From a bacterium (GTDB taxonomy: Bacteria; Zhuqueibacterota; Zhuqueibacteria; Residuimicrobiales; Krinioviventaceae): 64,000 bases of DNA. The position numbers and the translations under genes were made by a program. The DNA is taken from assembly GCA_963674595.2 (NCBI GenBank), contig CAXXFV010000003.1, positions 1-64,000 of the forward strand, read 5' to 3'. Position 1 is the stretch's first letter. Each line of letters begins with the position of its first letter. Under the pieces are notes generated by a model that searched no databases, was not told where the DNA came from, and saw only the letters and a program-made list of their open reading frames with translations. Of this stretch, positions 9,501-36,229 are shown piece after piece.

Positions 9501-10904
9501 TTACACTCCCCTCTTATCAGTACCGGAACAGGAAACAGATACTTTTTCACCCAATAGAAAGTCGATGGATTGTTTGGCCAGATGTCGCTTTTTCCGGTTT
9601 ACAAAATTCTGAGCAACTCTTTTGATAGAGGCATCTTTATTAACCTTTGAGACAAATCCCAAACCGGCAACATATTCGACGGCTTCCTGTTCTTCCATAA
9701 GTTCATGGTCCAGTAGCCATTCCAGGGCCTTTAATTCTTTTTCCAAAGCAGAAGCATTCAAGTGTCTGGCTCGTGCCATTTCGGTCTCATCAAACAGTCC
9801 CACCGGGTTCCATTCATGATACCATTTTGCTCCGGTAAATCCTTCAAACATTAAAAAGGTGTTGGTGACTTTTTCTATAACGGAATCAGCAGAATCCCTT
9901 CTCTCTTCAATACTCGATATCAACAGGTCTTTCTGGTCTTCACTCATTTTGAAATTAGAGTTCCAGTTGTACAATCCAAAACTAAAAGGGGGTAATTCTG
10001 TCCGTGCAATGATCTGTTCTATAATGATTCTGGAAGGGATTTCCATATCCATTAATTGAGCGCCTTCACCCAAAACTTTAACACTCACTTTGGATTCACT
10101 GGGAACAGCTCCGCCGATGTCCCGGACCTGGCCGCGTTTTCGATCTTTATTAACATCTTCCAACTGGGTCAACAGCTTATCGGCGGAATCTTTCAGGTCA
10201 GTATAATTTGTACCTCTCCCGCCTTCAATCAGTAATACAAATGTCGGGTCGCCGATCCTGACAACAGCATTCTTTATAGATTGCTGAATCCTTAACAATA
10301 TCTCAGCCACAAAAGGCATGGAATTAAACAGACTCACTCCCTGGGGATGGCCGTCTCTTAAATCAAATGTCAAATACTGAACAAATTCAGGGTGTTCTAA
10401 AATAACAGGTTTTGCAGCATCATGAGGTATGGAAGCCAACCACAGTCTGCCGTCTTTTCGGATAAAACGAACTTTGGCAGCATCACCGACTTTTAACCGG
10501 TCAACACCATTCAAACCGGCAAAAGGAACGGTCTCAAAGACACCGTAACCATTTGCCAGAGCTGAATCATAGACTTGTTGTAAACACCCGTGAAGTCCTT
10601 TGTGGAAATATCCGACCCTGATCTCTTTTTTAAAGTTGTTCAAGGCTTTTAAAACATTCGGATTATCACAACGGTATTCAAAATCCCCGATCAATCTCCG
10701 AAGCTTTAACACAGCGACATCTAAAATGGGAATGGCTTCTCGGAGAATATTATAAATCTTTAAATTGTATCGTAACGGTTCGTATCCGTTTAAATAGGTC
10801 TGGAATGGGCTGTCACTTGCAGAATAAAGTTGGGATTTAACAATAACATTGTTGGATTGTTTTGGTGGGAAATATTTATTAAGATTGAATTTTGGAAGGT
10901 TCAT
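9501..10904 (-). CDS. portal protein
   Basis: 467 aa; LREAIPILDVAVLKLRRLIGDF and HPQGVSLF-x-SMPFVAEILL, typical of this portal clade; first head gene. Confidence 0.85.
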   Translation of the reverse strand: MNLPKFNLNKYFPPKQSNNVIVKSQLYSASDSPFQTYLNGYEPLRYNLKIYNILREAIPILDVAVLKLRRLIGDFEYRCDNPNVLKALNNFKKEIRVGYFHKGLHGCLQQVYDSALANGYGVFETVPFAGLNGVDRLKVGDAAKVRFIRKDGRLWLASIPHDAAKPVILEHPEFVQYLTFDLRDGHPQGVSLFNSMPFVAEILLRIQQSIKNAVVRIGDPTFVLLIEGGRGTNYTDLKDSADKLLTQLEDVNKDRKRGQVRDIGGAVPSESKVSVKVLGEGAQLMDMEIPSRIIIEQIIARTELPPFSFGLYNWNSNFKMSEDQKDLLISSIEERRDSADSVIEKVTNTFLMFEGFTGAKWYHEWNPVGLFDETEMARARHLNASALEKELKALEWLLDHELMEEQEAVEYVAGLGFVSKVNKDASIKRVAQNFVNRKKRHLAKQSIDFLLGEKVSVSCSGTDKRGV

Positions 10905-11026
10905 TAACTGCCCATATATAGAATATATTTAAATAACGCATTCTATATATAGCAGAATCGGAGTAATTAATCAATATTTTGTGGGTAATTCACCCATAGC
11001 ATGAAGAAAATTGTTAGATATAAGGA

Positions 11027-11063
11027 CAAGAACTCGGAGGGTAAATAAGTCCCCGAGTTCTTG
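11027..11063 (-). terminator. conserved 3' cassette hairpin, copy A (terminator or REP-like)
   Basis: CAAGAACTCGG-N15-CCGAGTTCTTG just after the stop codon; near-identical at 15364 and 29531. Confidence 0.75.
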
Positions 11064-11072
11064 AAAGTCAAT

Positions 11073-13802
11073 TTACTTAAGGAGGATCATCTTTTTTACC
11101 ACATTCATACCACCGCCGTCAAGACGATAAAAGTATGTACCTGTTGGCAGATTTGAAGCATCAAACAACACTTGATGTGTACCAGCCTGACGGTGTCCAT
11201 CCAGTAAGACAGCAACTTCCTGCCCGCGTATGTTGTAAACCTTAAGTCTGAAATGATCATCCTTCGCAGCCTTAAAACTAATAGTCGTTACAGGATTAAA
11301 GGGATTGGGATGGTTTTGGAAAACAGTTGATGTCGCCTCAACTTCTTCAGTAAACTGTTTTTCCATTTCCGGGGTCCATTCACCCAGGGTTGTTAGGGCT
11401 GAATAACTCAACTCGTCTTTTGGAAACTCTTCTATCAACTGGCGGTAATATTTTTCTCCGGTTGACTTGTCTTTCAGGTGCATCCAATACACATTACCCA
11501 AATCATAAAGCGCGTATTTATAATAGGAAGATGTTTTATGGTTTCCTACAATCTCCTCTGCTGCGGCAATGGCATCGTCATATTGTTGTGCTCTCAACAT
11601 ATAAGCGGTTTGAAGAGATTTTGCCAGTACTGCAATGTCCGTATTTTTATATTGACTGTTTACCTGTTCCAGTAAATTTCCAACATTACTTTTACCATTT
11701 TGTTTATATGAACACTTTGCAGCAAAAGCCAAGGCTTGCTTGCCGATAGGACTGTTCGGGTATTCTTGATAAACAGCCTGAAATAAAGGCAAAGCAGCTG
11801 TTAAATTTTTATTAGCATAAGCATCATAAGCCTGCTTGAATTCTTCCTGACCGCGTTTGTCCGTGCTGTATATTTTTTCTTCTGCAAAATTTAAAGGCAC
11901 AATCCGCTGTTGCGCATTCATCTTTGGATAGGTGGTTGAAGTAGGATCTGAAGATAAGTAGGGCGTATAATCTACCGTTCCTTCAAAATAGTTAGGATCT
12001 GGTGGCGCTGAACCAAACCAATTATTTTCAGCATAAATGGTATTGACATTTGAACTATAGATGGCATAATCGAGATTGGCCATGTCATTACGACCATAAT
12101 TATATGTTGTGCCGACATCAGGATAAGATGTTGCATCTACATTGATACCGATCAGACTGTTTGTAAAGTCATTATACGAATGAATGTCAGGAGAGGCATA
12201 TTGATTACAGTCAATGGCATCACCTCCTGGTTTTGAAAAATTGCTGTATTGCACCCATCCATCTCCTGTGTTATTGAATGAAATACAATGATAAGCACAG
12301 CTATTGATGGCCGATCTATAAATATGAGTCGATGCGTTATAGTTTCGAACACCATAGGAAGCATTTTGCACATAACAATACTCCAATTGCACATATCCAT
12401 CGACAGCATCTATACCATACCAATAACCACTGACACTTTGAAACGTAATGGGATTGGCAGCTGATCCCTGAGCGATCAGCCACCCATTGACAGTCAGCTT
12501 TTTGCCGGATGCCATTCTTAAAACCACACCAGGATCTAATTCAAGCGTTATATTTGAAGGAATAGTAATATCATCAGTTTCTGTATAAGTTCCGGCAGAT
12601 ACTACTATTTTTTTTACAAAAGTAAGCTGTGAGGCTTGGGAAATTGAAGAAATCTGTTGAGGAACCTTGACATATGGCAAGGGAGTTAGCATCGCACGTG
12701 GCGAAGTTGCATTGACACTATGTGAATGAAGAGATGTATCATAAGTATTATAATAATAGAGTGTACTACCATCATTCGCATATCCAACAACAACTTGACA
12801 ATGACCAGTTATAACATAAGCAAAAGGGCGGTCTTGATCAATTTGCTTTTTAACATCACTGCTCACAAACTGTCCTTTTTCTTGATAAGAAAAAGTATAA
12901 CCATGAGAGTTCGCTATAGAAACAATAGAATTTGGAACATACGGTTTCATATCGTCTGGATCATAGCCATAATCATCTCCCTCACCTCCACTTGAGGGCC
13001 AGCCATAATAATCAGAAAAGTGATCAACGAGGTTTTTAGCAGTATATCTTGGATCACTTCCTGGGCCGTCCCAATTAAAGGTACTAACAGTATGCCATAA
13101 ATTAGAAAAAGCATTGACACTTCCATAATAATTAAAAATCATTGCCAAGCTTGTTGAGATACATCCACGATACCAAGTGAATGCATCTATACCAGAAATA
13201 ATTTTTGAAGTACTGCATGATTTATATAATCTATTATCATTTATATTGGCCCATTCAGTAATATTAACTTTACCGTATTCTTTTCTACTTTCTTCAGCGC
13301 TCTTTTCAAAAGAATTAATAATATCAACGTCAACAATACTTTTATAGATTAAATCCATATAATATTTACCTTTTGGTGTATCAAATTGGATAAAATATTT
13401 GTCACACCAGGACCATATATACTTTTTTATTCTAATATCATCAATATTAGTTTGTATTTTTTTTGATAATATTTTTTTGCAAATTTGAGTATTTTCTTGA
13501 GGAGGTCGTGCATTTGTTGCATCTACATGAATAGGAAGGTCATTATATGCACCTGTAACATAATAACCGACATACTTTTCTTCAACTTTAACAGTAAATA
13601 AATATGCAGCGGAATCACCATTTAAGTTGTAAAAAACGAATGGTTTCGTACTTGTCTGTCCTTGTGACCACTCTGGAAATAGCAAATCAACATCATTACA
13701 AATTTTATAAAAAGCTTCTCTTCCAGTATGTATTGAAATTCTTTCATGAGAATAACTATTTAAAAAAGTAAATATTATTAAAAGAAATGTTATGTTTTTC
13801 AT
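11073..13802 (-). CDS. secreted papain-like (C39/C10-like) peptidase - beta-helix - TPR - secretion CTD protein
   Basis: Signal peptide; Spi-like prodomain; GC-x2-TSLAM (Cys), GH-x-QVVVGY (His), YNTYD; parallel beta-helix; TPRs; QNHPNPFNP...KKMILLK CTD. Confidence 0.8.
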   Translation of the reverse strand: MKNITFLLIIFTFLNSYSHERISIHTGREAFYKICNDVDLLFPEWSQGQTSTKPFVFYNLNGDSAAYLFTVKVEEKYVGYYVTGAYNDLPIHVDATNARPPQENTQICKKILSKKIQTNIDDIRIKKYIWSWCDKYFIQFDTPKGKYYMDLIYKSIVDVDIINSFEKSAEESRKEYGKVNITEWANINDNRLYKSCSTSKIISGIDAFTWYRGCISTSLAMIFNYYGSVNAFSNLWHTVSTFNWDGPGSDPRYTAKNLVDHFSDYYGWPSSGGEGDDYGYDPDDMKPYVPNSIVSIANSHGYTFSYQEKGQFVSSDVKKQIDQDRPFAYVITGHCQVVVGYANDGSTLYYYNTYDTSLHSHSVNATSPRAMLTPLPYVKVPQQISSISQASQLTFVKKIVVSAGTYTETDDITIPSNITLELDPGVVLRMASGKKLTVNGWLIAQGSAANPITFQSVSGYWYGIDAVDGYVQLEYCYVQNASYGVRNYNASTHIYRSAINSCAYHCISFNNTGDGWVQYSNFSKPGGDAIDCNQYASPDIHSYNDFTNSLIGINVDATSYPDVGTTYNYGRNDMANLDYAIYSSNVNTIYAENNWFGSAPPDPNYFEGTVDYTPYLSSDPTSTTYPKMNAQQRIVPLNFAEEKIYSTDKRGQEEFKQAYDAYANKNLTAALPLFQAVYQEYPNSPIGKQALAFAAKCSYKQNGKSNVGNLLEQVNSQYKNTDIAVLAKSLQTAYMLRAQQYDDAIAAAEEIVGNHKTSSYYKYALYDLGNVYWMHLKDKSTGEKYYRQLIEEFPKDELSYSALTTLGEWTPEMEKQFTEEVEATSTVFQNHPNPFNPVTTISFKAAKDDHFRLKVYNIRGQEVAVLLDGHRQAGTHQVLFDASNLPTGTYFYRLDGGGMNVVKKMILLK

Positions 13803-13818
13803 TATAAATCAATCCTTT

Positions 13819-14568: not shown

Positions 14569-14959
14569 AATTAATCTCCAAATTGTCAATAAAAACATTG
14601 TGAATCATTTTTTAATTATATATTACATATATTTTATTATCTGATCTATAATTTGATAAAAATTTACTATGGTGGCCTACCGCTAAAGTAACCGTAATAA
14701 AAAAATAGCGTAGTGCTTTTTCTAAATATAAATAAAATAAAAAATATCGAATTTGAAAAATTACTATCTATAAAAAATACATTAATGATCAAACGAAAAA
14801 ATTTTTTATAAAGGCATATCCCCAAATTAATCAATCAATTTACTCCATTTAAATATCTATTCCATTAATAATACCAACCAAATAAAATTAAAAACAAAAT
14901 ATTATTTAGCTTTCCACCAATTGCCCAAGTTAACAAAAATTGAAAAAAACATCCATTAC

Positions 14960-15230
14960 ACCCCGAGCCCCAACATACAAAAATAGAAATATAACTGTTA
15001 GCCCCGGATATAACAATCCCGTTACATTAATTTTGTCGATTATGTACTTTTAAATTATAAATTTGTTCATTGACACTCCCCGTAGAGTAGTTAATTTGAT
15101 TTTGATTAGGTCATTTTAGTTACTTTTATTGACAAAGTCAAGGATATTTAGATTTGAAATTCATTTTTTATTTTTTTTAGGGGGGGTAATCCCCAGTTAT
15201 TTGCATTATTAAATACAAATTGCGTTACAG
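14960..15230 (-). repeat. conserved 5' cassette element, copy 1 (promoter, SD, mini-ORF, leader)
   Basis: Aligns by eye with 27317-27510 and 35835-36100. Confidence 0.85.
15113..15141 (-). promoter_or_regulatory. sigma70-like promoter with palindromic operator, copy 1
   Basis: TTGACT-N17-TAAAAT; TTGAC-N3-GTCAA palindrome (15129-15141) over the -35. Confidence 0.75.
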
Positions 15231-15363
15231 TTAGAACTATCGCTTTATATAAGCCATTTTGAATATTGGAGCAAGCGGTTTTTAAGAAATTTATCAAATA
15301 TCCCAAGGCAATATTTTGTAGATTATACACCCATAGCTTGGAAAAAATTTTTAGGTATAAAAT

Positions 15364-15400
15364 CAAGAACTCGGAGAGTAAATAAGTCCCCGAGTTCTTG
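15364..15400 (-). terminator. conserved 3' cassette hairpin, copy B
   Basis: CAAGAACTCGG-N15-CCGAGTTCTTG after the stop at 15414. Confidence 0.75.
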
Positions 15401-16711
15401 AAAATCAATTTACTTATTTGAGTAAAATCATTTTTTTAACCACATTCATACCGCCACCTTCAAGACGATAAAAATAAGTTCCTGAAGGTAAATTTGAAGC
15501 GTCAAACAATACCTGATGTGTTCCAGCTTGACGGTGACCGTCCAGCAATACGGCAACTTCCTGGCCACGGATATTGTAAACCTTGAGAGTAAAATGAGCG
15601 TCTTTTGCGGCTTTAAAACTAATAGTCGTTACAGGATTAAAGGGATTGGGATGGTTTTGGAAAACAGTTGATGTCGCCTCAACTTCTTCAGTAAACTGTT
15701 TTTCCATTTCCGGGGACCATTCACCAATAGTTGTTAGGGCTGAATAACTCAGCTCGTCTTTTGGAAACTCGTCTATCAACTGGCGGTAATATTTTTCTCC
15801 GGTTGATTTATCTTTCAGGTGCATCCAATATACATTACCCAAATTATAAAGCGCATATTTATAATAGGAAGATGTTTTATGGTTTTTTACAATCTCTTCT
15901 GCTGCTGAAATGGCATCGTCGTACTGTTGTGCCCTTAACATGTAAGCGGTTTTTAAAGATTTTGCCAGTATGGCAATATCCGAGTTTTTATATTGATTAC
16001 TAACTTGATCCAGTAACCCTTTAACATTGCTTTTATCCTCTTGTTGATAAGCACACTTGGCAGCAAAAGCCAAAGCTTGCTTGCCGATGGGACTGTCTGG
16101 ATACTGTTGATAAACAGCCTCAAACAATGGCTGGGCAGTCGTCAGGTTTTTCTGGGCATAGGCATCATGGGCCTGCTTGAATTCTTCCTGACCTCGTTTG
16201 TCCGTGCTGTATATTTTTTCTTCTGCAAAACTTAAAGGCACAATCCGCTGTTGCGAATTCATCTTTGGATAGGTGGTTGAAGTAGGGTCTGAAGACAAGT
16301 ATGGTGTATAATCAATAGTTCCTTCAAATAATTCATCATCAGGTGGCGCTGAGCCAAACCAATTATTTTCAGCATAAATAGTATTGACATTTGAGCTGCT
16401 AATAGCATAATCATTATTCGTTATATCATTTCGACCATAATAATATGTTGTGCCGACATCAGGATAAGATGTTGCATCTACATTAATACCGATCAGGCTG
16501 TTTTTAATATCATTATACGAATGAATATCAGGCGAAGCATACTGGTTACAGTCAATGGCATCACCTCCTGGTTTTGAAAAATTGCTGTATTGCACCCATC
16601 CATCACCTGTGTTATTGAATGAAATACAATGGTAAGCACAGCTATTGATGGCCGAATAATAAATATGAGTCGATGCGTTATAGTTTCGAACACCATAGGA
16701 AGCATTTTGCA

Positions 16712-25750: not shown

Positions 25751-25964
25751 AATTAGAGTTCTCCTAATAGATTTGATTTGTAAATTATTTTTGAGTCACT
25801 GAAAACTTTGGTATGCATACATTTTTTTAATTATTCACTTATTTAATTCCCATTATATATAATATTGGGATGGAATAACTATAAAAATTTGAGAACCAAG
25901 TAAAGAAAATTGTAATAAAGACCATATCTAATCATTACTGTCATTTCTCTCCCCCTCCTTAATA

Positions 25965-27200: not shown

Positions 27201-27316
27201 TTTAGTATCTCCATCTGGTTCTTTATCATTCTATGTTGCTGGCAAAATTTATTGTTTACTATACTCGTCAAGTTTAACAAATATACTATTTATAAAATAG
27301 ATGAATTATATATTAT

Positions 27317-27561
27317 ACCCCGAGCCCCAGAATGCAAAAATAGAAAAGGAACTATTAGCCCTGGATACAGTAATCCCGCAACACAAAAATTCTTATTGCT
27401 ATGTAATTTTAGAATATAAATTTGTTCATCGATACTCCCCGTAGAATAGTTAATTTGATTTTGATTAGAACATTCTAGTTATTTTTATTGACAAAGTCAA
27501 GGATATTTAGACTTGTTATTCATTTTTTATAGTCAAGCCCCGCATCACTGCAGGGCTCGAC
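27317..27561 (-). repeat. conserved 5' cassette element, copy 2
   Basis: Same promoter/leader as 14960-15230; upstream hairpin GTCAAGCCCCGCATCACTGCAGGGCTCGAC (27532-27561) shared with 36200-36229. Confidence 0.85.
27472..27500 (-). promoter_or_regulatory. sigma70-like promoter with palindromic operator, copy 2
   Basis: TTGACT-N17-TAGAAT; TTGAC-N3-GTCAA. Confidence 0.75.
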
Positions 27562-27590
27562 AAACCATTATATTCTCCACTTTTCACGCT

Positions 27591-27785
27591 TCAATACTTG
27601 TAATAAACATCACGCAAATAACTCTCAGAAAATCCAGTCTTTTTAGACACCTCCCGGATTGCATCACTTGCCGGACTTTTAGAACCACTCTTTTCAAATG
27701 ATTTACTCATTTTATAAATATGATTTCTTAATATCGTTAACCGTTTCTTTGTCGATTCTAATTTTGGATTTATTTGTACTGGCAT
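27591..27785 (-). CDS. small helix-turn-helix protein
   Basis: AAGGA RBS; DAIREVSKKTGFSESYLRDVYY. Confidence 0.55.
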   Translation of the reverse strand: MPVQINPKLESTKKRLTILRNHIYKMSKSFEKSGSKSPASDAIREVSKKTGFSESYLRDVYYKY

Positions 27786-27806
27786 ATCATTCCTTTCTAT
27801 TAAAAT

Positions 27807-29357
27807 TTATCTGGCCTTTCCAGCCCTGCTCCACACCATCGATCCTCCTATCGTTCCACCAATTTCTTCACTGATTAAAGAATAAGCTGCTGCATGGAGT
27901 AAGTGGTCTCCACTAATCGGCTTACTCCAAACCTGACGATTTGTATTAGGGTCAAAATATCTGACTGGTAATGTAAAATGATCCAATAACTCACCATCAG
28001 ATACTTTTCTCCAGTTTCTCGGAAGGATAAATCCATCTTGTTCACTTTTTAAAACATTCTTTAAAACACGATCAAGAGCTTGTGTCCGGTCCAGAGCAAT
28101 GATTTTATTATCTATGTCAACTGTCTGATCCTGTAAACTGCCCCCTTTTTTATACCAACATAACCACACCTTGCCTGGTCGGGATGCTTGCAGTTCTTTG
28201 GCTTTCGTGGTATCATATTCACCATCAATTGTACAGACTTCAACATTATATTGATCGATGAGAAAATCCAGTGTGTCCCAATCATAAGCGGCACCACAAG
28301 CAACCAACCGTTTTCTTCCATTGTATCGTTCCCAGATGAAATAATGATGCCGACCACCTGGATCAACTCCCATAAAAGTATTATTTCCTGTCGACGGCAT
28401 GAGATAATCATCTTTACATTTTTCCATTAATGCTTCAGTTATCTTACTTCCCTTTGGAGCAAACGCACGACCCAGGTTTGAATTGTGAAACAACTGTGTC
28501 TTGGTCGTATCTCCCAGAGCTTCCTGAAATTCATTCCATAATTCCAAAAGGTCTGTATCAAAACTGATCAACCTTGAAAACCTGTAACCGACTCTCGGTT
28601 TATCCGGATATTTGGCAATCCACTCACCGATCCATGGTTCATGTATAATCTTTTCACATTTATCACAGATAATTTGCGGTTTGCCTTTTTCCTCTCTTAT
28701 GGGTTTAAAAATCAATCCTTCAGAATCAACCTGCCTGACAACATGTTTAAACCAATCCAGTTCAATGTATTTGTTACAATGCTGACACCGGGTCAGGTAT
28801 CGGGATTGATTTGTAGACCTGTATAAACCATCCACTCCACAATTCTCAACAGTCGGACGTGAGGAATACCGGAGCATTTTATATTCAGATGCTTTCAATC
28901 GGTCTTTTAACTGGTCCAGGTTGTCCATGTCTGATTCATCATATTCATCAACAAATGCGATATCCACAGGATTTTCTACAAACTCTGTTCTTGAATTTGA
29001 TCCCACAAACCGCATGGTCCCTTTGCCATAATGTTTCTGCAAGACACTGTCACTTTCACCCCCTTCATCCAAATGACTTTTGTACAGGGGAACAAAGCTC
29101 AAAAGTTTGTCAATCCGGTCATGTACAAAGTTTGATCTCAGGGTTTGGTTCGGCATGACATACAGACCGCGTAATCCACTGGAAACATAGTGCAAGAGTT
29201 CAACCAACAACCGCTCTGTAATTCCAACCTGTACCGGTTTGATGAACACGATAAACTGGGGCATTTCGGTTTGAGGTTTTATACCTTTGGCAATGTCATT
29301 GAAAAAGCCAGGCGGAGCATATAAATCCTGTAACCAGTCCCGATTAATAAATGACAT
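27807..29357 (-). CDS. terminase large subunit (GpA-like ATPase plus nuclease), possibly 5'-truncated
   Basis: K-x2-QVGITE Walker A-like, FVDEYD Walker B, CQHC...CDKC, MGVDPG, DHLLHA. Confidence 0.9.
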   Translation of the reverse strand: MSFINRDWLQDLYAPPGFFNDIAKGIKPQTEMPQFIVFIKPVQVGITERLLVELLHYVSSGLRGLYVMPNQTLRSNFVHDRIDKLLSFVPLYKSHLDEGGESDSVLQKHYGKGTMRFVGSNSRTEFVENPVDIAFVDEYDESDMDNLDQLKDRLKASEYKMLRYSSRPTVENCGVDGLYRSTNQSRYLTRCQHCNKYIELDWFKHVVRQVDSEGLIFKPIREEKGKPQIICDKCEKIIHEPWIGEWIAKYPDKPRVGYRFSRLISFDTDLLELWNEFQEALGDTTKTQLFHNSNLGRAFAPKGSKITEALMEKCKDDYLMPSTGNNTFMGVDPGGRHHYFIWERYNGRKRLVACGAAYDWDTLDFLIDQYNVEVCTIDGEYDTTKAKELQASRPGKVWLCWYKKGGSLQDQTVDIDNKIIALDRTQALDRVLKNVLKSEQDGFILPRNWRKVSDGELLDHFTLPVRYFDPNTNRQVWSKPISGDHLLHAAAYSLISEEIGGTIGGSMVWSRAGKAR

Positions 29358-29530
29358 GCGTTTGAAATGGGTTGATTATGGTTTTAATAGATTAGATAAT
29401 TTTAGTGAGATGGATGTTGAGAGGTGTTTTGGAAGGATGGTTAACTGACCATATAGAGCAGATTAGGGTAATTAATAAATATTTGTGGATTATACACCCA
29501 TAGCCAGTAAAAAATTGTTAGATATAAGGA

Positions 29531-29567
29531 CAAGAACTCGGAGGGTAAATAAGTCTCCGAGTTCTTG
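29531..29567 (-). terminator. conserved 3' cassette hairpin, copy C
   Basis: CAAGAACTCGGAG...CTCCGAGTTCTTG after the stop at 29577. Confidence 0.75.
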
Positions 29568-29576
29568 AAAGTCAAT

Positions 29577-31493
29577 TTACTTCAGGAGGATCATTTTTTT
29601 AATTTCATTCATACCACCGCCTTTAAGGCGATAAAAATAAGTTCCTGAAGGCAAGTTAGAAGCATCAAACAACACCTGATGCGTACCAGCCTCACAGTCA
29701 TCGTCTAACAATACGGCAACCCTTTGTCCACTAATATTGTAAACCTTGAGACTGTAATGATCGTCTTTTGCCGTCCAGAATGTGATTGTCGTTTCCGGAT
29801 TAAAGGGATTTGGGTAATTTTGATCAAGTGCTAATTCCTGCAGTAATAAATTCGGTCCATCGTCTTTTTTCTCAACACCGGTCGAACCGCTATTTTCAAA
29901 GGACAAGGCCAAGCGATAGGGATAAGACAAACCGGTATACAGTTCTTCTATGTCTGTTCCGTCCAAATTTGCCCGTTTTATTTTACCGGGTTCTCTTTCA
30001 ATCCAGTATATTTTATTACCTTCAACATCCAGGGCAAGACCACAAGGCCATTTAAGACCGGTAACAATAGCCTGAATATCACTGCCGTCTAAATTGGCAC
30101 GTTTAACACCTCTAAAATCTACAGCCCTTTCGGTCCAATATATCTTTTTATTTTTTAAATCAAGAGCAATATCGTCCGGTTGTCCTGAAGACTTTATAAT
30201 TTTTTCAACATCATTACTGCTGTTATTCAAATTGGCACCTAGAACCGTATTAAGTGAATTACTCCAATATAATGTTCCATCAAAAGGGTCAACTGCAACT
30301 CCATACGCAAATCCATGAATGTAATAAGGGTATTCAACCCGGCTGCCATCTAAATTCTTACAACCAATAGATTTACCCTCTGACTGTCTAGCCCAATACA
30401 TCTTTTCATTCACAACATCCAAAGCAATGTCATATATATATATTCCATATTCTACTACATTTGTAAGAAATTCAACATCTGAACCGTCCATATTACATTT
30501 AAAAATACTGGCATAAGAACTTGCCCAGTATATCTTATCATTTTCCCGGTCAAGAGCAAGGCATACCGGACTTCCATAATTAACAATCAACGGTTTAATA
30601 TTTCGTCCGTCCAGACGGGAACGATAAATCGTACGGGACCAATAATAATCATACCAGTACATCTCTCCCGTTGATAGATCCAAACATAGATAAAGAGCAA
30701 TTAAATCATCTCTTTTAATCAGCGCTTCAAATTCAGTTCCATCGGTGTTCATTCTCCATACACCGAAATAATGTGTCAGATAAAGCTTTTTATTTTTTGA
30801 ATCAAGCTGTAGCCTTTTTTGATGATTCCAATATCCAACAACATAAACAATCTCTTCTTCATTGCCGTCCAGATTTACACCCTTGAGAACACGACCGTTA
30901 TCATCAAAAAAATAAATTCGACGACCTCTTCCATCAACAACATAATCAATTATCTTTTCATTGTGTTCTATGATTGATCTTATTTTTTCACCATCCAAAC
31001 CAACACAATAAAGAGTATCACTTGAGGCATTCATCCAATAGAGATTTTCATAGACCAGATCCAGGGCCAGATTGTTGGGCCGGGTCAGACCACATAAAAA
31101 TTCTTGCTTGTTTGAACCGGTTATATCAGCTTGCCAAATTTTTCCGCTGTCTGATACGCTCCAATACATTTTGTTGTGGAGTGTGTCAATAACCATACTC
31201 TTTACCAGGCCTGTTCCGGAAACCAATGTTTTAATCCTTCTTGTTTCCATATTCTCACGCCGGATGGCATCATCTTCATAATAATAAATATATCCTTGGG
31301 CTGCTGCCAACAAAAATACTACACGAGAAGAGAGCAGTTCCCTATATTGGCTACCGTCAGCATCTCCGCAATATATCTTGTCGTCTTGTTTATCTGTCCA
31401 GTAAATTAATCGTTCCTTTGCTGTTACAACATTTAAAAACGTGAAAAGGTTGGATACAGTAAAGAAAAACACAAATGCTGCTCTTTTTATCAT
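29577..31493 (-). CDS. secreted YWTD/LDL-receptor class B beta-propeller protein, paralog 3 (chassis-type CTD)
   Basis: Repeated P-x2-(I/L)ALD-x4-KIYW(T)...RANLDG blades; signal peptide; QNYPNPFNP...KKMILLK. Confidence 0.88.
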   Translation of the reverse strand: MIKRAAFVFFFTVSNLFTFLNVVTAKERLIYWTDKQDDKIYCGDADGSQYRELLSSRVVFLLAAAQGYIYYYEDDAIRRENMETRRIKTLVSGTGLVKSMVIDTLHNKMYWSVSDSGKIWQADITGSNKQEFLCGLTRPNNLALDLVYENLYWMNASSDTLYCVGLDGEKIRSIIEHNEKIIDYVVDGRGRRIYFFDDNGRVLKGVNLDGNEEEIVYVVGYWNHQKRLQLDSKNKKLYLTHYFGVWRMNTDGTEFEALIKRDDLIALYLCLDLSTGEMYWYDYYWSRTIYRSRLDGRNIKPLIVNYGSPVCLALDRENDKIYWASSYASIFKCNMDGSDVEFLTNVVEYGIYIYDIALDVVNEKMYWARQSEGKSIGCKNLDGSRVEYPYYIHGFAYGVAVDPFDGTLYWSNSLNTVLGANLNNSSNDVEKIIKSSGQPDDIALDLKNKKIYWTERAVDFRGVKRANLDGSDIQAIVTGLKWPCGLALDVEGNKIYWIEREPGKIKRANLDGTDIEELYTGLSYPYRLALSFENSGSTGVEKKDDGPNLLLQELALDQNYPNPFNPETTITFWTAKDDHYSLKVYNISGQRVAVLLDDDCEAGTHQVLFDASNLPSGTYFYRLKGGGMNEIKKMILLK

Positions 31494-31555
31494 GACTGCA
31501 TCCTTTTCATTTTTTACTATTCATTTAATAACTTTTATTAAATATAACTACAAAC

Positions 31556-33496
31556 TTATTTGATGAACATCATTTTACCGGATTGGGTAAATGTACCTGC
31601 GACGAGTTTGCAAATATAAGCGCCGCTGGATACCATTTCACCGCTGTTGTCCCGGCCGTCCCATACAACCGATTTATAACCTTGTCCCTGCGGTCCGTTC
31701 GCCAAAACACGCACCTCTTCTCCCAGCATGTTGTATATTTTTAGGCTGACATGACAGGCTTCCGGTAAGGCATATTTTAGTACGGTTTGCGAATTAAAGG
31801 GATTGGGATAATTTTGAGCCAGTTCAAATTCCTGCGGGATTAAATTCGGTCCATCGTCTTTTTTCTCAACATCGGTCGAACCGCTATTTTCAAAGGACAA
31901 GGCCAGGCGATAGGGATAAGACAAACCGGTATACAGTTCTTCTATGTCTGTCCCGTCCAGATTTGCCCGTTTTATTTTACCGGCTTCATGTTCAATCCAA
32001 TATACTTTACCGCCGTCAACATCCAGGGCAATACCGGAGGGCCATTCAAGACTGGTAATTACATTCTGGACATCACTGCCATCCAAATTGGCACGTTTAA
32101 TACCTCTATAATCTATAGCCCTTTCGGTCCAATATATCTTTTTATGTTTTAAATCAAGAGCAATATCTTCCGGTTGTCCCGAAGACTTGATGATTGTTTG
32201 CACTTCGCTGCCATTATTCAAATCAGTACATCCAATCGTATTATATTTTCCATTACCCCCATTACTCCAATAAATCTTTTCACTAAACGGATCAACTACA
32301 ACTCCAAACGAAAACCAATAATTGTAATAAGGATATTCAACCTGGCTGCCATCTAAATTTGCGCGGCCAACAGTCGATTTTTCTGACGCCCTACCCCAAT
32401 ACACCTTTTCATTCACAATATCCAAAGTGAGGTCATATATATATGCTCCATAATCTATCACATTTGTAAGAAATTCAACATTGGAACCGTCCGTATTACA
32501 TTTGTAAATACTGGCAAAAGTATTTGCCCAGTATATTTTATCACCTTCAGGATCAAGAGAAAGGCACACCGGTTTTTGATAACTAACAATCAGCGGTTCG
32601 ACATTTTGACCATCCAAACGAGAACGATAAATCGTCATAGACCAATAAAGATGAAACCAATACATCATTCCTTTTGACAGATCCAGACTTAGATTTTGAA
32701 CACCATAATTAAAACCTGTAACCAGTTCCTCAAATTCAGTTCCATCAGTGTTCATTCTCCACACCCCGAAATAATGTGTCAGATAAAGCTTTTTATTTTT
32801 TGAATCAAGCTGTAGCCTTTTTTGATGATTCCAATATCCAACAACATAAACAATCTTTTCTTCATTGCCGTCCAGGTTCACACTCTTGAGAACTCGACCA
32901 TTATTATCAGTAAAATAGATTCGATGCGCTCTTCCATCTACAACATAATCAATTATCTTTTCATTGTGTTCTATGATTGATCTTATTTTTTCACCATCCA
33001 AACCAGCACAATAAAGAGTATCACTTGAGGCATTCATCCAATAGAGATTTTCATAGACCAGATCCAAGGCCAGATTGTTGGGCCGGGTCAGACCACATAA
33101 AAATTCTTGCTGGTTTGAACCGGTCATATCAGCCTGCCAAATCTTGCCGCTGTCTGATACGCTCCAATACATTGTGCTGTGAAGCGTGTCAATAACCATA
33201 CTGCTTACCCGGCCCATTTCGGAAACCAGTGTTTCAACATTTCTTGTTTCCATATTCTCACGTCGGATGGCATTCTCTTCATAATAATAAATATATCCCT
33301 GGGCGGCAGTTAACAACAGCACTCCACGGGAAGAGAGCAGTTCCCTATATTGGTTACCGTCAGCATCTCCGCAATATATCTTTTTGTCCTGTGTGTCTGT
33401 CCAGTAAATTAATCGTTCCTTTGCTGTAACAATATTTAAAAGCGTGAAAAGGTTGGATACAGTGCAGAAAAACACTAATGCTGTTCTTTTTATCAT
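31556..33496 (-). CDS. secreted YWTD beta-propeller protein, paralog 2 (FlgD-Ig-type CTD)
   Basis: Same blades; CTD with VWDGRDNSGEMVSSG; ATG 33496 (GTG 33520 alternative). Confidence 0.88.
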   Translation of the reverse strand: MIKRTALVFFCTVSNLFTLLNIVTAKERLIYWTDTQDKKIYCGDADGNQYRELLSSRGVLLLTAAQGYIYYYEENAIRRENMETRNVETLVSEMGRVSSMVIDTLHSTMYWSVSDSGKIWQADMTGSNQQEFLCGLTRPNNLALDLVYENLYWMNASSDTLYCAGLDGEKIRSIIEHNEKIIDYVVDGRAHRIYFTDNNGRVLKSVNLDGNEEKIVYVVGYWNHQKRLQLDSKNKKLYLTHYFGVWRMNTDGTEFEELVTGFNYGVQNLSLDLSKGMMYWFHLYWSMTIYRSRLDGQNVEPLIVSYQKPVCLSLDPEGDKIYWANTFASIYKCNTDGSNVEFLTNVIDYGAYIYDLTLDIVNEKVYWGRASEKSTVGRANLDGSQVEYPYYNYWFSFGVVVDPFSEKIYWSNGGNGKYNTIGCTDLNNGSEVQTIIKSSGQPEDIALDLKHKKIYWTERAIDYRGIKRANLDGSDVQNVITSLEWPSGIALDVDGGKVYWIEHEAGKIKRANLDGTDIEELYTGLSYPYRLALSFENSGSTDVEKKDDGPNLIPQEFELAQNYPNPFNSQTVLKYALPEACHVSLKIYNMLGEEVRVLANGPQGQGYKSVVWDGRDNSGEMVSSGAYICKLVAGTFTQSGKMMFIK

Positions 33497-33562
33497 GACT
33501 GTATCCTTTTCATTTTTCACTTCTCATTTAATATCTTGATACTTATAAATTTCACTACCAAC

Positions 33563-35500
33563 TTATTTGATAAACATCATTGTACCGGATTGGGTAAACG
33601 TGCCCGCGACAAGTTTGCAAATATAAGCGCCGCTGGATACCATTTCACCGCTGTTGTCCCGGCCATCCCATATAACCGATTTATATCCATCTCCCTGTGG
33701 GCCGTTCGCCAAAACACGCACCTCTTCTCCCAGCATGTTGTATATTTTTAGGCTGACATGACAGGCTTCCGGTAAGGCATATTTTAACACGGTTTGCGAA
33801 TTAAAGGGATTGGGATAATTTTGATATAATGCGAATTCCTGCGGTATTAAATTCGGTCCATCGTCTTTTTTTTCAACAGCAGTCGAACCGTTATTTTCAA
33901 AAGACAAGGCCAGGCGATAGGGCCAGGTTAGACCGCTAAACAGTTCTTCTATGTCTGTTCCGTCCAGATTTGCCCGTTTTATTTTACCGGGTTCTCTTTC
34001 AATCCAGTATATTTTATTACCTTCAACATCCAGGGCAAGACCACAGGGCCATTTAAGACCGGTAACAACATCATGAATTCCACTGCCATCTAAACTAGCG
34101 CAACAGATTCGACCAACTTTTAAATGTTCGGTCCAAAAGATTTTATTATCTCTCAGGTTGAGAGCAATATCGTCAGGAAATTCAAGACTATCAACAAGCA
34201 TTTCAATGTTTTGACCATTTAAATCAGCACAACTAATTGAAGTGGTCCTTGTTGATCCAAGTTGGCTCCAGTAAACCTTTTCCTGAGACGGATCAACCGC
34301 GATACCGAATGTCCAATGCCAACGAACATTATAGGGAAATTCTACATCAGTGCCGTCAAGATTTGCTCGGCCAAGAGCTTGACCTTCTGCTGCACTGGCA
34401 AAATATAGCTTTTGGTTTACCATATCCAGGTCAATATCCAATAATTCAGCATTTGCAATAAAATCATATATAAGGAACTCTACTTCAGAACCGTCAATAT
34501 TAGAACGATAAATATTATAAAAATTACCTGACCAATACATCTTTTCTCCCTCAAGATCAAGAGCAAGGCAAGTCAAATTTTTATAATTAACAATCACTGG
34601 TTCAATATTACGCCCATTCAAACGGGAACGATAAATCGTATAAGTCCATAGAGGAGTATACCAGTACATGTCTCCCCGTGACAGGTCAAGACTTAAATAT
34701 TGACTGCCTAAATCATAATTATTAACCAGTTCCTTTAATTCTGTTCCATCGGTATTGATTCTCAATATCTGGGAATGATGTGTCAGATAAAGCTTTTTGT
34801 TCCTGGAATCAAGTTGAAGATCTCTATGAAAACTCTCAAATTCAAAGGTATAAACAATCTCTTCTTCGTTGCCGTCCAGGTTCACACTCTTGAGTACGCG
34901 ACCATTATCATCAGTAAAATAGATTCGATACGCTCTTCCATCCACAACATAATCACTTATCTTTTCATTGTGCTCTATGACCGATCTTATTTTTTCACCA
35001 TCCATACCAGCACAATAAACGGTATCACGGGTATCATTCATCCAATAGATATTTTCATAAACATCATCCAGCGCCAGATTGTTGGGCAGAACCAGATTAC
35101 AAAGAAACTCTTGCTTGTTTGAACCGGTTATGTCAGCCTGCCAAATCTTGCCGCTGTCTGATACGCTCCAATAAATTATGCTGTTAAGCGTGTCAATAAC
35201 CATACTGCTAACCCGGCCCGTTTCGGAAATCAGGGTTTCAACCGTTCTTGTCTCCTTATTCTCACGCCGGATAGCATCCTCTTCATAATAATAAATATAT
35301 CCCTGGGCTGCAGTTAACAACCTTACATAACGGGAAGAAAGTACTTTTTCATAATGACCGCCGTCAGCATCTCCGCAATATATCTTGTCGTCAACTCTAT
35401 CGATCCAGTAAATACATCTTTCTTTGGCTGTAACAACATTTAAAAGCGTGAAAAGGTTGTATACAGTGAAGAAAAACACAAACGTTATTCTTTTTAACAT
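33563..35500 (-). CDS. secreted YWTD beta-propeller protein, paralog 1 (FlgD-Ig-type CTD)
   Basis: As above; ATG 35500 (GTG 35524 alternative). Confidence 0.88.
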   Translation of the reverse strand: MLKRITFVFFFTVYNLFTLLNVVTAKERCIYWIDRVDDKIYCGDADGGHYEKVLSSRYVRLLTAAQGYIYYYEEDAIRRENKETRTVETLISETGRVSSMVIDTLNSIIYWSVSDSGKIWQADITGSNKQEFLCNLVLPNNLALDDVYENIYWMNDTRDTVYCAGMDGEKIRSVIEHNEKISDYVVDGRAYRIYFTDDNGRVLKSVNLDGNEEEIVYTFEFESFHRDLQLDSRNKKLYLTHHSQILRINTDGTELKELVNNYDLGSQYLSLDLSRGDMYWYTPLWTYTIYRSRLNGRNIEPVIVNYKNLTCLALDLEGEKMYWSGNFYNIYRSNIDGSEVEFLIYDFIANAELLDIDLDMVNQKLYFASAAEGQALGRANLDGTDVEFPYNVRWHWTFGIAVDPSQEKVYWSQLGSTRTTSISCADLNGQNIEMLVDSLEFPDDIALNLRDNKIFWTEHLKVGRICCASLDGSGIHDVVTGLKWPCGLALDVEGNKIYWIEREPGKIKRANLDGTDIEELFSGLTWPYRLALSFENNGSTAVEKKDDGPNLIPQEFALYQNYPNPFNSQTVLKYALPEACHVSLKIYNMLGEEVRVLANGPQGDGYKSVIWDGRDNSGEMVSSGAYICKLVAGTFTQSGTMMFIK

Positions 35501-35566
35501 GGCTGTATCCTTTTCATTTATCACTACTCATTTAATATCTTAATACTTTTAAATTTCACTACCAAC

Positions 35567-35629
35567 TTATTTGATAAACATCATTGTACCGGATTGGGTA
35601 AACGTGCCCGCGATCAGTTTGCATATATA
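35567..35629 (-). pseudogene. C-terminal remnant of a further (deleted) CTD-bearing paralog
   Basis: Encodes YICKLIAGTFTQSGTMMFIK-stop plus the same intergenic spacer as 33520-33625. Confidence 0.85.
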
Positions 35630-35834
35630 TACGTAAAACAGTTTTTAAAACAAATTGAAATTCTCGCATCAGTCAGCCTTTATTTTTGAATTAGTCGTTT
35701 AAAAATAATACGACTGGTGCGGGATTTAATCAATTAAGAAATATGCACAACGGATTATTTAATATTCAGATTATATATTCTTTTATTAACTGGTAAAATT
35801 ATTTTTTATGAGAAACTAAAAAAAATAATATCAT

Positions 35835-36229
35835 ACCCCGAGCTCAATATCAGATGAGGAAAAAATAACAAGTGAAAAATAGCCCCGGATATAACAATCC
35901 CGTTACATTAATTTTGTCGATTATGTACTTTTAGATTATAAACTTGTTCATTGATACTCCCCGTAGAGTAGTTAATTTGATTTTGATTAAATTATTTTAG
36001 TTACTTTTATTGACAAAGTCAAGTTTATTTAGACTTGAAATTCATTTTTTTGTGGGGGTAATCCCCCAGTTGTTTGCATTATAGAATACAAATTGCGTTA
36101 CAAATTTACAATCTCATTTTAAGAATCCTCTTGAATAACGAACTCTTTCAGACAAAATAAAATGAATTTATTTATCAAGCCTATAGATCGCTTTTTATAG
36201 TCAAACCCCGCATCACTGCAGGGTTTGAT
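35835..36229 (-). repeat. conserved 5' cassette element, copy 3
   Basis: Near-identical to 15001-15230; also carries the hairpin shared with 27532-27561. Confidence 0.85.
35994..36022 (-). promoter_or_regulatory. sigma70-like promoter with palindromic operator, copy 3
   Basis: TTGACT-N17-TAAAAT; TTGAC-N3-GTCAA. Confidence 0.75.

What the first reader, a model, noticed from the sequence alone, without database searches (positions are those of the whole stretch)
10895..36229. Three cargo cassettes with shared 5' and 3' ends nested in the phage packaging operon
Seen: the same promoter/operator/leader (200-270 bp) heads cassettes at about 15.1, 27.5 and 36.0 kb. The same CTD coding end (GGGMN-x2-KKMILLK), CAAGAACTCGG hairpin and CACCCATAGC tail close them at about 11.0, 15.35 and 29.5 kb. 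The interiors are different secreted-protein genes. Cassettes A and B lie between terL/HTH and portal; C lies between the RuvC genes and terL. Inference: a standardised, co-regulated expression slot whose payload is swapped by recombination between conserved ends, possibly helped by the prophage's Mgm101-like annealase and RuvC. This would be an integrase-free cassette system for diversifying the secretome.
Basis: partly seen in the sequence, partly recalled or inferred. Interest (0 to 1): 0.82.

Follow-up and report, generated by a model that had tools for sequence, protein, structure and literature searches.

The report
Prophage cargo slots with secreted-protein genes
A prophage carries two cargo slots filled with genes for secreted proteins that share reused promoter and tail sequences, which looks like ordinary phage gene-shuffling in an unusually tidy form and not a new cassette machine.

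Summary
The repeats are real. A ~220-bp promoter/leader stands at 14950-15175, 27312-27530 and 35835-36055. A coding end plus hairpin plus GCTATGGGTG tail stands at ~11.0, 15.35 and 29.5 kb. The payloads are type IX secretion (T9SS) cargo and outer-membrane genes, lying between TerL and portal and upstream of TerL.

The ends are not slot-specific recombination sites. The leader has 10 copies in the genome, 7 of them outside the prophage, all before surface-protein genes. The "tail" is three things joined: a T9SS sorting-domain coding end shared with chromosomal genes, a hairpin, and the first bases of the phage's own pre-portal backbone.

At least five sibling prophage copies in the same genome hold quite different cargo in the same two slots: an integron with canonical attC sites, defence genes, sensor kinases. 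Seven of nine sibling slots open with a second dispersed promoter/leader family of at least 43 copies.

Cassettes carry scraps of former neighbours, which points to sloppy homologous or illegitimate recombination between co-resident prophages and host paralogs. The phage encodes Mgm101, an exonuclease, SSB and a RuvC-like protein. No attC-like site occurs in the window.

Best reading: moron hot spots with modular regulatory repeats. This is a new variant of a known kind, of moderate interest.

The parts
9501..10904 (-). Portal gene; right-hand backbone flank of slot 2
   Evidence: phrog_30703 portal, E 9e-59
10905..11009 (-). Pre-portal backbone, including the motif GCTATGGGTGnATTACCCACAAAATATTG and a hairpin over the portal start.
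   Evidence: Present upstream of the portal in C10, C9, c3 and c2 siblings whatever their cargo
11027..11063 (-). Tail A hairpin (13-bp stem, 11-nt loop), about 10 nt after the stop codon
   Evidence: Only 4 copies in the genome, all on C3. Not scored as a canonical intrinsic terminator
11073..13802 (-). C39-like peptidase + TPR + T9SS type A sorting domain
   Evidence: PF13529, TPR, PF18962 42.9 bits; TIGR04183 36.5 bits
13819..14598 (-). Small outer-membrane beta-barrel gene
   Evidence: PF13568, E 4.7e-5, below cut-off; NF049866 weak
14950..15175 (-). Type-1 promoter/leader, copy A; promoter-like TTGACT-N17-TAAAAT at 15141-15113
15172..15229 (-). 58-nt element shared upstream of leaders A and C (second copy at 36045-36102)
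   Evidence: Family D14, 84%
15271..15346 (-). Footprint: GCTATGGGTG motif plus the 5' part of a promoter that in siblings drives a small RNA-like gene upstream of the portal
   Evidence: 84-87% to C25:13453-13529 and 53784-53850
15364..15400 (-). Tail B hairpin
15414..20051 (-). S8 subtilase + TPR + CTD gene, split by IS256-family element no. 1 (16712-18143; 8-bp duplication ATTTTGCA)
   Evidence: Pfam. Reading frames on both sides match the contiguous C39 paralog. 87% identical to 10972-12370 over 1403 bp
20199..20851 (-). Second small OMP beta-barrel gene, in two frames in the window
   Evidence: PF13568 weak. 1-nt differences at 20481 and 20621 in a contig of run X2
21174..22605 (+). IS256-family element no. 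2, inserted in the T-run of the caspase gene's terminator (duplication AAAATATC)
   Evidence: PF00872, E 2e-121
22654..25221 (-). Caspase-like (C14) + TPR + CTD gene with its own terminator at 22642-22613
25139..27200 (-). LTD-domain ORF (25139-25750) and PKD + LRR lipoprotein-like gene (25965-27200)
   Evidence: The LRR gene is 91% identical over 1161 nt to C8:20092-21252, which also keeps a leader remnant
27312..27530 (-). Type-1 promoter/leader, copy B. It starts 5 nt after backbone homology with the siblings ends (27535)
27535..29357 (-). Backbone: terminator 27524-27575, small ORF 27591-27785, TerL 27807-29357
   Evidence: PF05876; 90-93% identity to siblings
29430..29508 (-). Footprint: remnant of pre-portal backbone, including about the first 15 nt of the portal ORF, joined to pre-TerL backbone
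   Evidence: Alignments; 83% over 60 nt
29531..29567 (-). Tail C hairpin
29577..35524 (-). Three tandem YWTD/LDL-B beta-propeller + CTD paralogs (29577-31493, 31556-33520, 33563-35524). The first is a mosaic: its CTD and tail come from the protease-TPR family, with the breakpoint at ~29791-29822
35835..36055 (-). Type-1 promoter/leader, copy C
36192..36243 (-). Backbone terminator at the left edge of slot 1, 87% like the one at 27524-27575
   Evidence: Family D15; backbone homology to c2 and C9 ends at 36203
36423..40360 (-). Phage recombination module: two RuvC-like paralogs (36423-37013, 37003-37587), SSB (38303-38713), exonuclease (38719-39435), Mgm101-family annealase (39425-40360)

Best explanation
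The region is two cargo ('moron') hot spots of a temperate phage that is present in at least five related copies in this genome. One slot lies between the recombination module and TerL. The other lies between TerL plus a small ORF and the portal gene.

Each slot begins just after a backbone terminator with a reused ~200-bp promoter/leader repeat, which supplies transcription for whatever follows. In this copy the repeat is 'type 1', a host-wide element that otherwise heads chromosomal surface-protein genes. The cargo is nine genes for T9SS-secreted or outer-membrane proteins: three protease-TPR-CTD paralogs, two small beta-barrels, an LRR protein, an LTD-domain ORF and three YWTD propellers.

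The common 3' end is a composite. It consists of the coding end of one subfamily of T9SS sorting domain, a hairpin (probably a 3'-end or terminator element), and the first ~30-80 bp of the phage's own pre-portal DNA, dragged along when modules were copied.

Cargo is gained, duplicated and moved by relaxed homologous and illegitimate recombination between the co-resident sibling prophages and chromosomal paralogs. The dispersed leaders, the CTD coding ends and short backbone motifs provide the homology. The phage's Mgm101 annealase, exonuclease, SSB and RuvC-like proteins are the likely catalysts.

Shown: the anatomy, the copy numbers, the different cargo in siblings and the junction footprints. 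Inferred: promoter activity, co-regulation, secretion, and the recombination mechanism and its enzymes.
For: - The phage backbone is real: portal, major head and TerL.
- Sibling copies exist on C10, C9, C5, C25 and twice more on C3, at 90-98% identity in the backbone. Backbone depth is about 5x the cargo depth in two runs of one sample.
- Backbone homology stops at 27535 and resumes at ~11000-11009. For the other slot it stops at 36203 and resumes at 29369-29441.
- Sibling slots hold other cargo. One has an integron integrase (TIGR02249, 454 bits) with 2 attC cassettes. One has DrmD, PDC-S11 and PDC-S37/Hhe defence-like genes. One has PAS kinases and a lipase.
- 7 of 9 sibling slots start with a type-2 promoter/leader, which has at least 43 copies in the genome.
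- The type-1 leader has 10 copies, 7 outside the prophage. All precede ORFs with signal- or lipoprotein-like N-termini, and 4 of 8 loci have small OMP barrels.
- Footprints: a pre-portal remnant upstream of TerL, and a small-RNA promoter remnant after tail B.
- Mosaics: the YWTD1 CTD, and 1.4-1.5 kb of TPR-CTD-tail at 87-90% identity behind two different protease heads.
- Cargo G+C falls to 26-33%, against 40-45% in the late backbone.
- The genome has SprA, and all 150 scored candidates (of 214 found) match the CTD domain.
- Recombination genes are present.
- Precedents: phage-borne variable T9SS cargo (PMC7468147, passages read) and Rad52-like recombinases driving mosaicism (PMC3945230, abstract).
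Against: - All comparisons are within one 37-contig assembly with 5% estimated contamination. No conspecific genome or related phage was found, so 'swapping' is inferred from paralogous copies, not from populations.
- No RNA data exist. The number of promoter-like sites in the region is no higher than in shuffles (73 against 78.4).
- The hairpin is not a canonical terminator.
- The left junction (backbone to leader) is not explained by crossover within the leader.
- The imported LRR segment ends at its stop codon with no shared 3' sequence.
- 72-95% conservation over ~200 bp is more than a plain promoter needs, and that remains unexplained.
Confidence: 0.65

Rival explanations
1. A dedicated, integrase-free cassette system. 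The conserved 5' leader and 3' tail are the functional recombination handles of a standard slot, and payloads are exchanged precisely between them.
For: - Leaders sit exactly at the slot's left edge (27530 against the end of backbone homology at 27535).
- Tails sit at the right edges.
- Leaders A and C are 95% identical although they flank unrelated genes.
- A second leader family opens 7 of 9 sibling slots and heads tandem small operons on C29.
Against: - Sibling slots have neither the type-1 leader nor the hairpin tail.
- The GCTATGGGTG part is phage backbone.
- Junctions are imprecise and carry footprints.
- Unit B1 ends in a different terminator.
- 7 of 10 leaders are at ordinary chromosomal genes with no tail.
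Confidence: 0.12
2. Old segmental duplications, now static. Paralogous gene families simply kept their promoter and CTD/3' sequences, and nothing is exchanged today.
For: - Tandem YWTD paralogs and three tandem C19 paralogs each have their own leader.
- Divergence between copies is 5-25%.
- The laid contigs gave no credible alternative joints; all joints had sides of 27 nt or less, within repeats.
Against: - The same two positions hold unrelated cargo in the siblings.
- Leaders and tails flank non-homologous genes.
- The CTD and tail are about 80% identical at DNA level where the adjacent TPR regions are only 43-45% identical as protein, which suggests conversion or transfer of the ends.
Confidence: 0.2
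3. The leader is a MITE/Correia-like mobile promoter element that inserted itself upstream of these genes.
For: A dispersed lineage-specific repeat with 10 copies. It carries a promoter-like site and is preceded by hairpins. It was not found in 40 related genomes.
Against: No conserved terminal inverted repeats. No target duplication is evident. Copies are 72-83% alike outside the phage, so there is no sign of recent bursts.
Confidence: 0.1
4. Integron-type cassettes (an attC cluster without integrase), served in trans by the IntI encoded about 88 kb away in a sibling prophage.
For: A bona fide intI with two attC cassettes sits in the equivalent slot of the sibling at C3:112.7-117.0 kb. Its first cassette is itself a T9SS-CTD protein.
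Against: A scan that recovers 2 of 2 control attC sites finds none in the 14 intergenic regions of the window's slots, on either strand. The motif ACGTTAGGY gives only the two control sites as real attCs among 14 genome hits. The hairpin lacks R/L boxes and a GTTRRRY end.
Confidence: 0.03
5. Assembly artefact: repeats collapsed or mis-joined in a metagenome-like assembly created the apparent arrangement.
For: There are 37 contigs and 5% contamination. Many near-identical repeats exist. The window starts at a contig end.
Against: Independent Logan contigs bridge tail B to leader A (15079-15642), the leader B junction (27015-27678), and the C39 gene to leader A (12474-15028) without differences. 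They may, however, come from the sample the assembly was made from.
Confidence: 0.05

Closest known systems
Phage morons (independent transcription units inserted between backbone genes; 'The moron comes of age', PMC3594210, only the start of the abstract seen in a search listing)
   Same: Extra genes lie between conserved phage genes and are absent from close relatives. They have their own promoter-like and 3' hairpin elements and deviant G+C. They probably benefit the lysogen.
   Different: The inserts are very large (13.7 kb net of IS elements, and 6.8 kb). They sit between TerL and the portal. Several units reuse the same ~220-bp leader and the same 3' module. The leader is also used by chromosomal genes.
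[quoted passage not shown]
   Same: Fixed positions between core genes carry unrelated cargo in related elements. One sibling slot here carries DrmD/PDC-type defence genes.
   Different: This is a different phage lineage and different positions. The cargo in the window is secretome, not defence. The slots open with dispersed promoter/leader repeats.
'Cryophage' variable genes with T9SS type A sorting domains (Bellas et al. 2020, PMC7468147, passages read)
   Same: Phage-encoded T9SS cargo that varies between phage variants.
   Different: Here it is a multi-copy prophage in one genome, with protease-TPR and propeller cargo, shared leaders and tails, and recombination footprints. I did not compare the sequences.
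Integrons, including those reported in phages and prophages (Qi et al. 2023, PMC9892861, abstract and outline read)
   Same: An array-like series of accessory genes at a fixed platform. A true integron occupies the same slot in a sibling.
   Different: The window has no attC and no adjacent IntI. The cassettes carry their own promoters at the 5' end, and their boundaries are imprecise.
Promoter-bearing dispersed repeats such as Neisseria Correia elements or enterobacterial ERIC (recalled, not checked in any call)
   Same: Short lineage-specific intergenic repeats that can supply promoters and RNA hairpins to neighbouring genes.
   Different: No terminal inverted repeats were found. The copies are longer and always oriented towards the downstream gene.

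Membership tests
Phage moron | Lies between adjacent backbone genes and is absent from closely related phages | tested here: met
   Backbone homology to siblings breaks at 27535/11009 and at 36203/29441. The siblings carry other genes there
Phage moron | Own promoter and terminator | tested here: inconclusive
   TTGACT-N17-TAAAAT/TAGAAT, 10 of 12 matches. The number of such sites is no higher than in shuffles. The hairpin is not called as a terminator, and there are no RNA data
Phage moron | Base composition differs from the flanks | tested here: met
   26-33% G+C at 13-15, 19-21 and 25-27 kb, against 40-45% in the late genes. The TPR-CTD parts are about 39%
T9SS type A cargo | C-terminal sorting domain above the curated cut-off | tested here: met
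   PF18962 at 42.9-46.4 bits (cut-off 27) in 4 ORFs. TIGR04183 at 28.1-41.7 bits (cut-off 23) in 4 of the 4 CTD ORFs tested. YWTD2 reached only 21.5 bits in Pfam and was not run against NCBIfam
T9SS type A cargo | Secretion machinery encoded by the host | tested here: met
   SprA (TIGR04189), 656.7 bits, on C4. All 150 scored candidates match the CTD domain
T9SS type A cargo | N-terminal Sec signal peptide | tested here: inconclusive
   Hydrophobic N-termini were read by eye in the translations. No predictor was available
Integron gene cassette / CALIN | attC site (imperfect palindrome bounded by ...AAC / GTTRRRY) at the 3' end of each cassette | tested here: not met
   The scan recovers 2 of 2 control attCs and finds 0 in 14 window intergenic regions on both strands
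Integron gene cassette / CALIN | Adjacent integron integrase and attI | tested here: not met
   None in the window. The only intI found by these searches is at C3:115820-116812, in a sibling prophage
MITE / Correia-like element | Terminal inverted repeats | tested here: not met
   Only weak A/T-rich matches, not shared between copies
Structured cis-regulatory RNA (riboswitch-like leader) | Match to a described family, or significant fold with covariation | tested here: not met
   Rfam gave 0 hits at gathering score and only chance-level hits at E up to 1. Fold z-scores of 8 copies ranged from -0.74 to +1.52. The alifold helices have almost no double changes
Prophage cargo hot spot (P2/P4 type) | Same inter-core-gene position with unrelated cargo among relatives, including defence genes | tested here: met
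   PADLOC gave DrmD at 1e-170, PDC-S11 at 1e-116 and PDC-S37 at 1648 bits in C9 slot 1
RuvC-like resolvase (ORF 37003-37587) | RNase H-like fold resembling RuvC | tested here: inconclusive
   The model has mean pLDDT 58. The top 9 Foldseek hits are RuvC, with E 4e-5 to 3e-4 and TM 0.46-0.62. No Pfam, PHROG, NCBIfam or PDB sequence hit

The most novel reading that the evidence does not exclude
The two lineage-specific ~200-bp promoter/leader repeat families (type 1 with 10 copies, type 2 with at least 43) are portable 'cassette heads'. Each supplies an insulated promoter and also serves as a homology handle. Together with shared 3' modules (the CTD coding end plus hairpin), they would form a recombinase-independent, annealase-driven network. 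That network would move accessory genes (secretome, toxin-antitoxin, defence, even an integron) between the chromosome and the two slots of at least five co-resident prophages. In function it would be an integron-like gene-capture system without attC or IntI.
Probability: 0.15. Interest if true: 0.8.

Novelty: new variant of a known kind. Interest (0 to 1): 0.5.

Why it matters
If the reading holds, this prophage family rewires what its host secretes through the type IX system. It also shows how a phage can borrow host regulatory modules, so that imported genes join an existing surface-protein regulon.

Having five or more sibling prophages in one genome, with an integron, defence genes or secretome genes at the same two positions, gives a compact natural system. 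It could be used to study how cargo hot spots are filled, and whether dispersed promoter repeats guide that process.

Phage-borne T9SS cargo has been reported only rarely. One case turned up in my searches.

Tried and rejected
- External relatives. The leader DNA was not found in 40 related genomes; the one 37-nt hit at E 6e-4 I treat as chance. A degenerate leader pattern gave 0 hits in genome contigs and 0 in metagenome contigs. TerL gave no relative in viral contigs with a single sequence, none in genome contigs with a two-sequence profile, only three loci at 26% identity in viral contigs (not analysed further), and 0 of 42 other genomes of the order at E<=1e-30. The type-2 leader was likewise not found in 40 related genomes, apart from one 38-nt hit at E 6e-4.
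- RNA structure of the type-1 leader. There is no thermodynamic signal and almost no covariation. A mini-ORF (MNKFII-like, 7 of 9 copies) behind a GGGGAG motif was noted but is not conserved as a peptide.
- attC scanners. My first two failed their positive control and were discarded. A MAFFT alignment of the two attCs was too poor to build a covariance model from, so I built none. The third scanner found 1 of 2 controls. With looser thresholds it found 2 of 2, and that version is the one I used.
- Sequencing runs. No RNA holder is listed. The laid contigs gave joints only inside repeats, with sides of 27 nt or less, which I do not count as evidence for rearrangement.
- CRISPR self-targeting. 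75 spacers were tested and none matched elsewhere in the genome at E<=1e-4.
- The protein atlas gave only weak leads (0.88 and 0.78) with Bacteroidota/Ignavibacteriota taxa. The phylum was not determined.
- RNAalifold on a column-filtered alignment of type-2 copies gave no useful structure. Hand-chosen helices pair in 86% of cells, against 24-52% when shifted, but with few double changes.
- A profile of the RuvC-like paralogs against PDB sequences gave 0 hits.
I did not ask for supplementary files; those of PMC7468147 may list the Cryophage cargo genes and could bear on how similar that case is.
Full report
**What is there.** All genes between 8 and 41 kb lie on the minus strand. The backbone is that of a tailed temperate phage:
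- major head protein, 4478-5599
- minor head protein, 8397-9500
- portal, 9501-10904 (phrog_30703, 9e-59)
- gpA-type TerL, 27807-29357
- SSB, 38303-38713
- an exonuclease, 38719-39435
- an Mgm101-family annealase, 39425-40360 (PF06420, 7e-46)
- a divergent CI-like HTH gene, 42020-42427

A low-confidence model of the second (pLDDT 58) nevertheless has RuvC structures as its nine best Foldseek matches (E 4e-5 to 3e-4). In the first paralog the first Asp of the DPG motif is a Ser.

**The observation.** It holds.
- The 5' block stands at 14950-15175, 27312-27530 and 35835-36055. Identities are A-C 95% over 171 nt, A-B 83% over 219 nt, and B-C 79-81%.
- The 3' block stands at 10960-11075, 15300-15416 and 29470-29580, at 87-91% identity.
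- The payloads differ:
  - a C39-like peptidase-TPR-CTD gene preceded by a small outer-membrane barrel
  - an S8 subtilase-TPR-CTD gene preceded by another small barrel
  - a caspase-like-TPR-CTD gene preceded by an LTD-domain ORF and a PKD-LRR gene
  - three tandem YWTD-propeller-CTD genes
- The C-terminal peptide is the T9SS type A sorting domain. PF18962 scores 42.9-46.4 bits in four ORFs, and TIGR04183 is above its cut-off in the four tested.
- The genome encodes SprA, and all 150 scored candidate ORFs match the CTD domain.
- Two IS256-family elements are simple insertions with 8-bp target duplications. One splits the S8-TPR-CTD gene. The other sits in the terminator of the caspase gene. 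Without them 'cassette B' is two units, the first ending in its own canonical terminator.

**The ends are not peculiar to the slots.**
- The leader has 10 copies in the genome, 7 of them outside the prophage: three before tandem lipoprotein paralogs on C19, one each on C6 and C8, and two on C16.
- All ten precede ORFs with signal- or lipoprotein-like N-termini. Four of the eight loci include a small OMP beta-barrel gene.
- Across nine aligned copies the -35 CTTGAC and a TAnnAT -10 are kept, together with several downstream blocks.
- I found no Rfam match, no fold signal, no useful covariation and no terminal inverted repeats.
- The tail is a composite:
  - The CTD coding end is also found at 76-89% DNA identity in chromosomal genes on C13 and C26.
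  - The hairpin occurs only four times, all on contig C3.
  - GCTATGGGTGnATTACCCACAAAATATTG is the start of the phage's own pre-portal region, present in every sibling whatever its cargo.

**Sibling prophages give the natural experiment.** tblastn and blastn against the window's own genome show related copies:
- C10: full late region
- C9
- C5: early region
- C25: fragment
- C3, twice more: 'c2' at 66-84 kb and 'c3' at 112-131 kb
- C26: a distant relative

In two runs of one sample the backbone has about five times the depth of the cargo, and independent contigs bridge three of the critical junctions.

Backbone homology with the window stops at 27535, 5 nt before leader B, and resumes at 11000-11009. 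In the other slot it stops at 36203 and resumes at 29369-29441.

The same two positions hold other cargo in the siblings:
- In c3, an integron integrase (TIGR02249, 454 bits against a cut-off of 265) followed by two cassettes with canonical attC sites. The first cassette encodes a CHAP-domain T9SS-CTD protein.
- In C9, DrmD-, PDC-S11- and PDC-S37/Hhe-like genes in one slot, and PAS kinases with a lipase in the other.
- In c2, Hsp70-like and TerB-domain genes and a YWTD-CTD gene next to the portal.
- In C10 and c3, four more phage-like genes upstream of TerL.

None of these slots has the type-1 leader or, except c2, the hairpin tail.

Seven of the nine sibling slots nevertheless open with another reused element. 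This is a 'type-2' promoter/leader of ~200 nt that has at least 43 copies across 12 contigs. It precedes very diverse accessory genes, including a run of toxin-antitoxin-like pairs on C29.

**How the cargo moved.** The junctions are not clean.
- Downstream of YWTD1, the hairpin is followed by about 80 bp of pre-portal DNA, reaching into the first ~15 nt of the portal ORF. This is then joined to the pre-TerL backbone. That unit was therefore copied from a position next to a portal gene, as seen today in c2.
- After tail B comes the same motif plus the 5' part of a promoter. In the siblings that promoter drives a ~120-nt RNA-like gene upstream of the portal.
- YWTD1 is a mosaic. Its body is 82% like YWTD2, while its CTD and tail are 80% like the protease-TPR family, with the switch at ~29791-29822.
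- The C39 and S8 genes share 1.4-1.5 kb of TPR-CTD-tail at 87-90% identity behind unrelated protease domains.
- The caspase gene shares only the CTD at DNA level.
- The leader-plus-LRR block is 91% identical to a decayed chromosomal copy on C8.

These are the marks of homology-assisted and illegitimate recombination among diverged repeats. That is what Rad52-like phage annealases are reported to promote (PMC3945230, abstract). They are not the marks of precise cassette excision and insertion. A scan that recovers both control attC sites finds none in the window's 14 intergenic regions, so integron membership is rejected for the window.

**Limits.**
- Everything rests on one 37-contig assembly with 5% estimated contamination.
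- No conspecific genome, related phage or RNA data set was found.
- Promoter activity, co-regulation, secretion and the enzymes of recombination are inferred.
- It remains unexplained why ~200 bp of leader is kept at 72-95% identity. That leaves room for the bolder reading, in which these repeats are functional 'cassette heads'.

**Comparison with what is known.** The region behaves like phage morons and like the cargo hot spots of P2/P4 elements. Phage-encoded, variable T9SS cargo has been described once in the papers I could search ('Cryophage', PMC7468147, passages read). My searches for prophage T9SS cargo returned no other case. Integrons in phages and prophages are also on record (PMC9892861, abstract and outline).

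What is unusual here:
- the place, between TerL and the portal
- the size of the inserts
- the repeated use of host-wide promoter/leader repeats and of one CTD-hairpin module
- the coexistence of five or more differently loaded sibling copies in one genome

**Verdict.** This is a new variant of a known kind, with interest 0.5.

Noticed in passing
window 43881-61622: A type III CRISPR-Cas locus abuts the early end of the prophage. The array runs 44067-50132 with 63 copies of a 37-nt repeat and is interrupted by an IS at 44649-45914. The genes are Cas1 (51033-51800), a separate reverse transcriptase (51800-52765), an S_4TM effector-domain protein, four RAMP proteins, a Cas10-like protein and Cas6. 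75 spacers were tested and none matched elsewhere in the genome.
   Followed up: partly
G000 C3:66461, C3:111921, C9:149577 (outside the window): Three truncated sibling prophages end at the same nucleotide of the portal gene (after about residue 229). There they are fused to a degenerate CRISPR repeat, followed by a ~145-nt element that also precedes the window's array (43881-44024) and, in two of the three, by CRISPR arrays. I have no explanation for this.
   Followed up: partly
G000 C3:112700-117000 (locus L018): A complete small integron sits inside the TerL-portal slot of a sibling prophage. intI is on the same strand as two cassettes with ~131-135-nt attC sites ending in GTTAGGT and GTTAGGC. 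Cassette 1 is a CHAP + T9SS-CTD protein and cassette 2 is DUF5677.
   Followed up: partly
G000, at least 43 places, e.g. C3:116780-116986 and C29:46600-51150: The 'type-2' dispersed element has a strong promoter-like site (TTTAAAAACnnCTTGC-N17-TATnAT) and ~170 nt of conserved sequence with a possible three-part hairpin (86% of cells paired, against 24-52% when shifted). It has no Rfam match and was not found in 40 related genomes. It precedes very diverse accessory genes and heads tandem toxin-antitoxin-like pairs on C29.
   Followed up: partly
window 43730-43854 (minus); siblings C10:45765-45951, C9:148575-148760, C3:112738-112864, C25:13502-13687: A conserved ~120-nt RNA-like element ends in a GC hairpin and a T7 run. 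In three of the four siblings it has its own promoter. It lies just upstream of the pre-portal region, and in the window next to the CRISPR leader. It has no Rfam match.
   Followed up: partly
window 61904-63493 and 61733-64000: An ORF with a Mu-transposase C-terminal domain. The last 2.27 kb of the window are 100% identical to C25:48439-50706, which lies next to a third IS256 copy.
   Followed up: no
window 20199-20851: The second small OMP barrel gene reads in two frames. A contig of run X2 lacks one base at 20481 and one at 20621, so the frameshift may be a polymorphism or an assembly error.
   Followed up: no
window 36423-37587: Two adjacent paralogs, 27% identical, with a RuvC-like predicted fold. 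The upstream-encoded one keeps D (in DPG), E and D. The other has S in place of the first D.
   Followed up: partly
G000 C9:41155-44928: Two more tandem YWTD-CTD paralogs, up to 95% identical in DNA to the window's third copy, lie far from the C9 prophage and have no type-1 leader.
   Followed up: no
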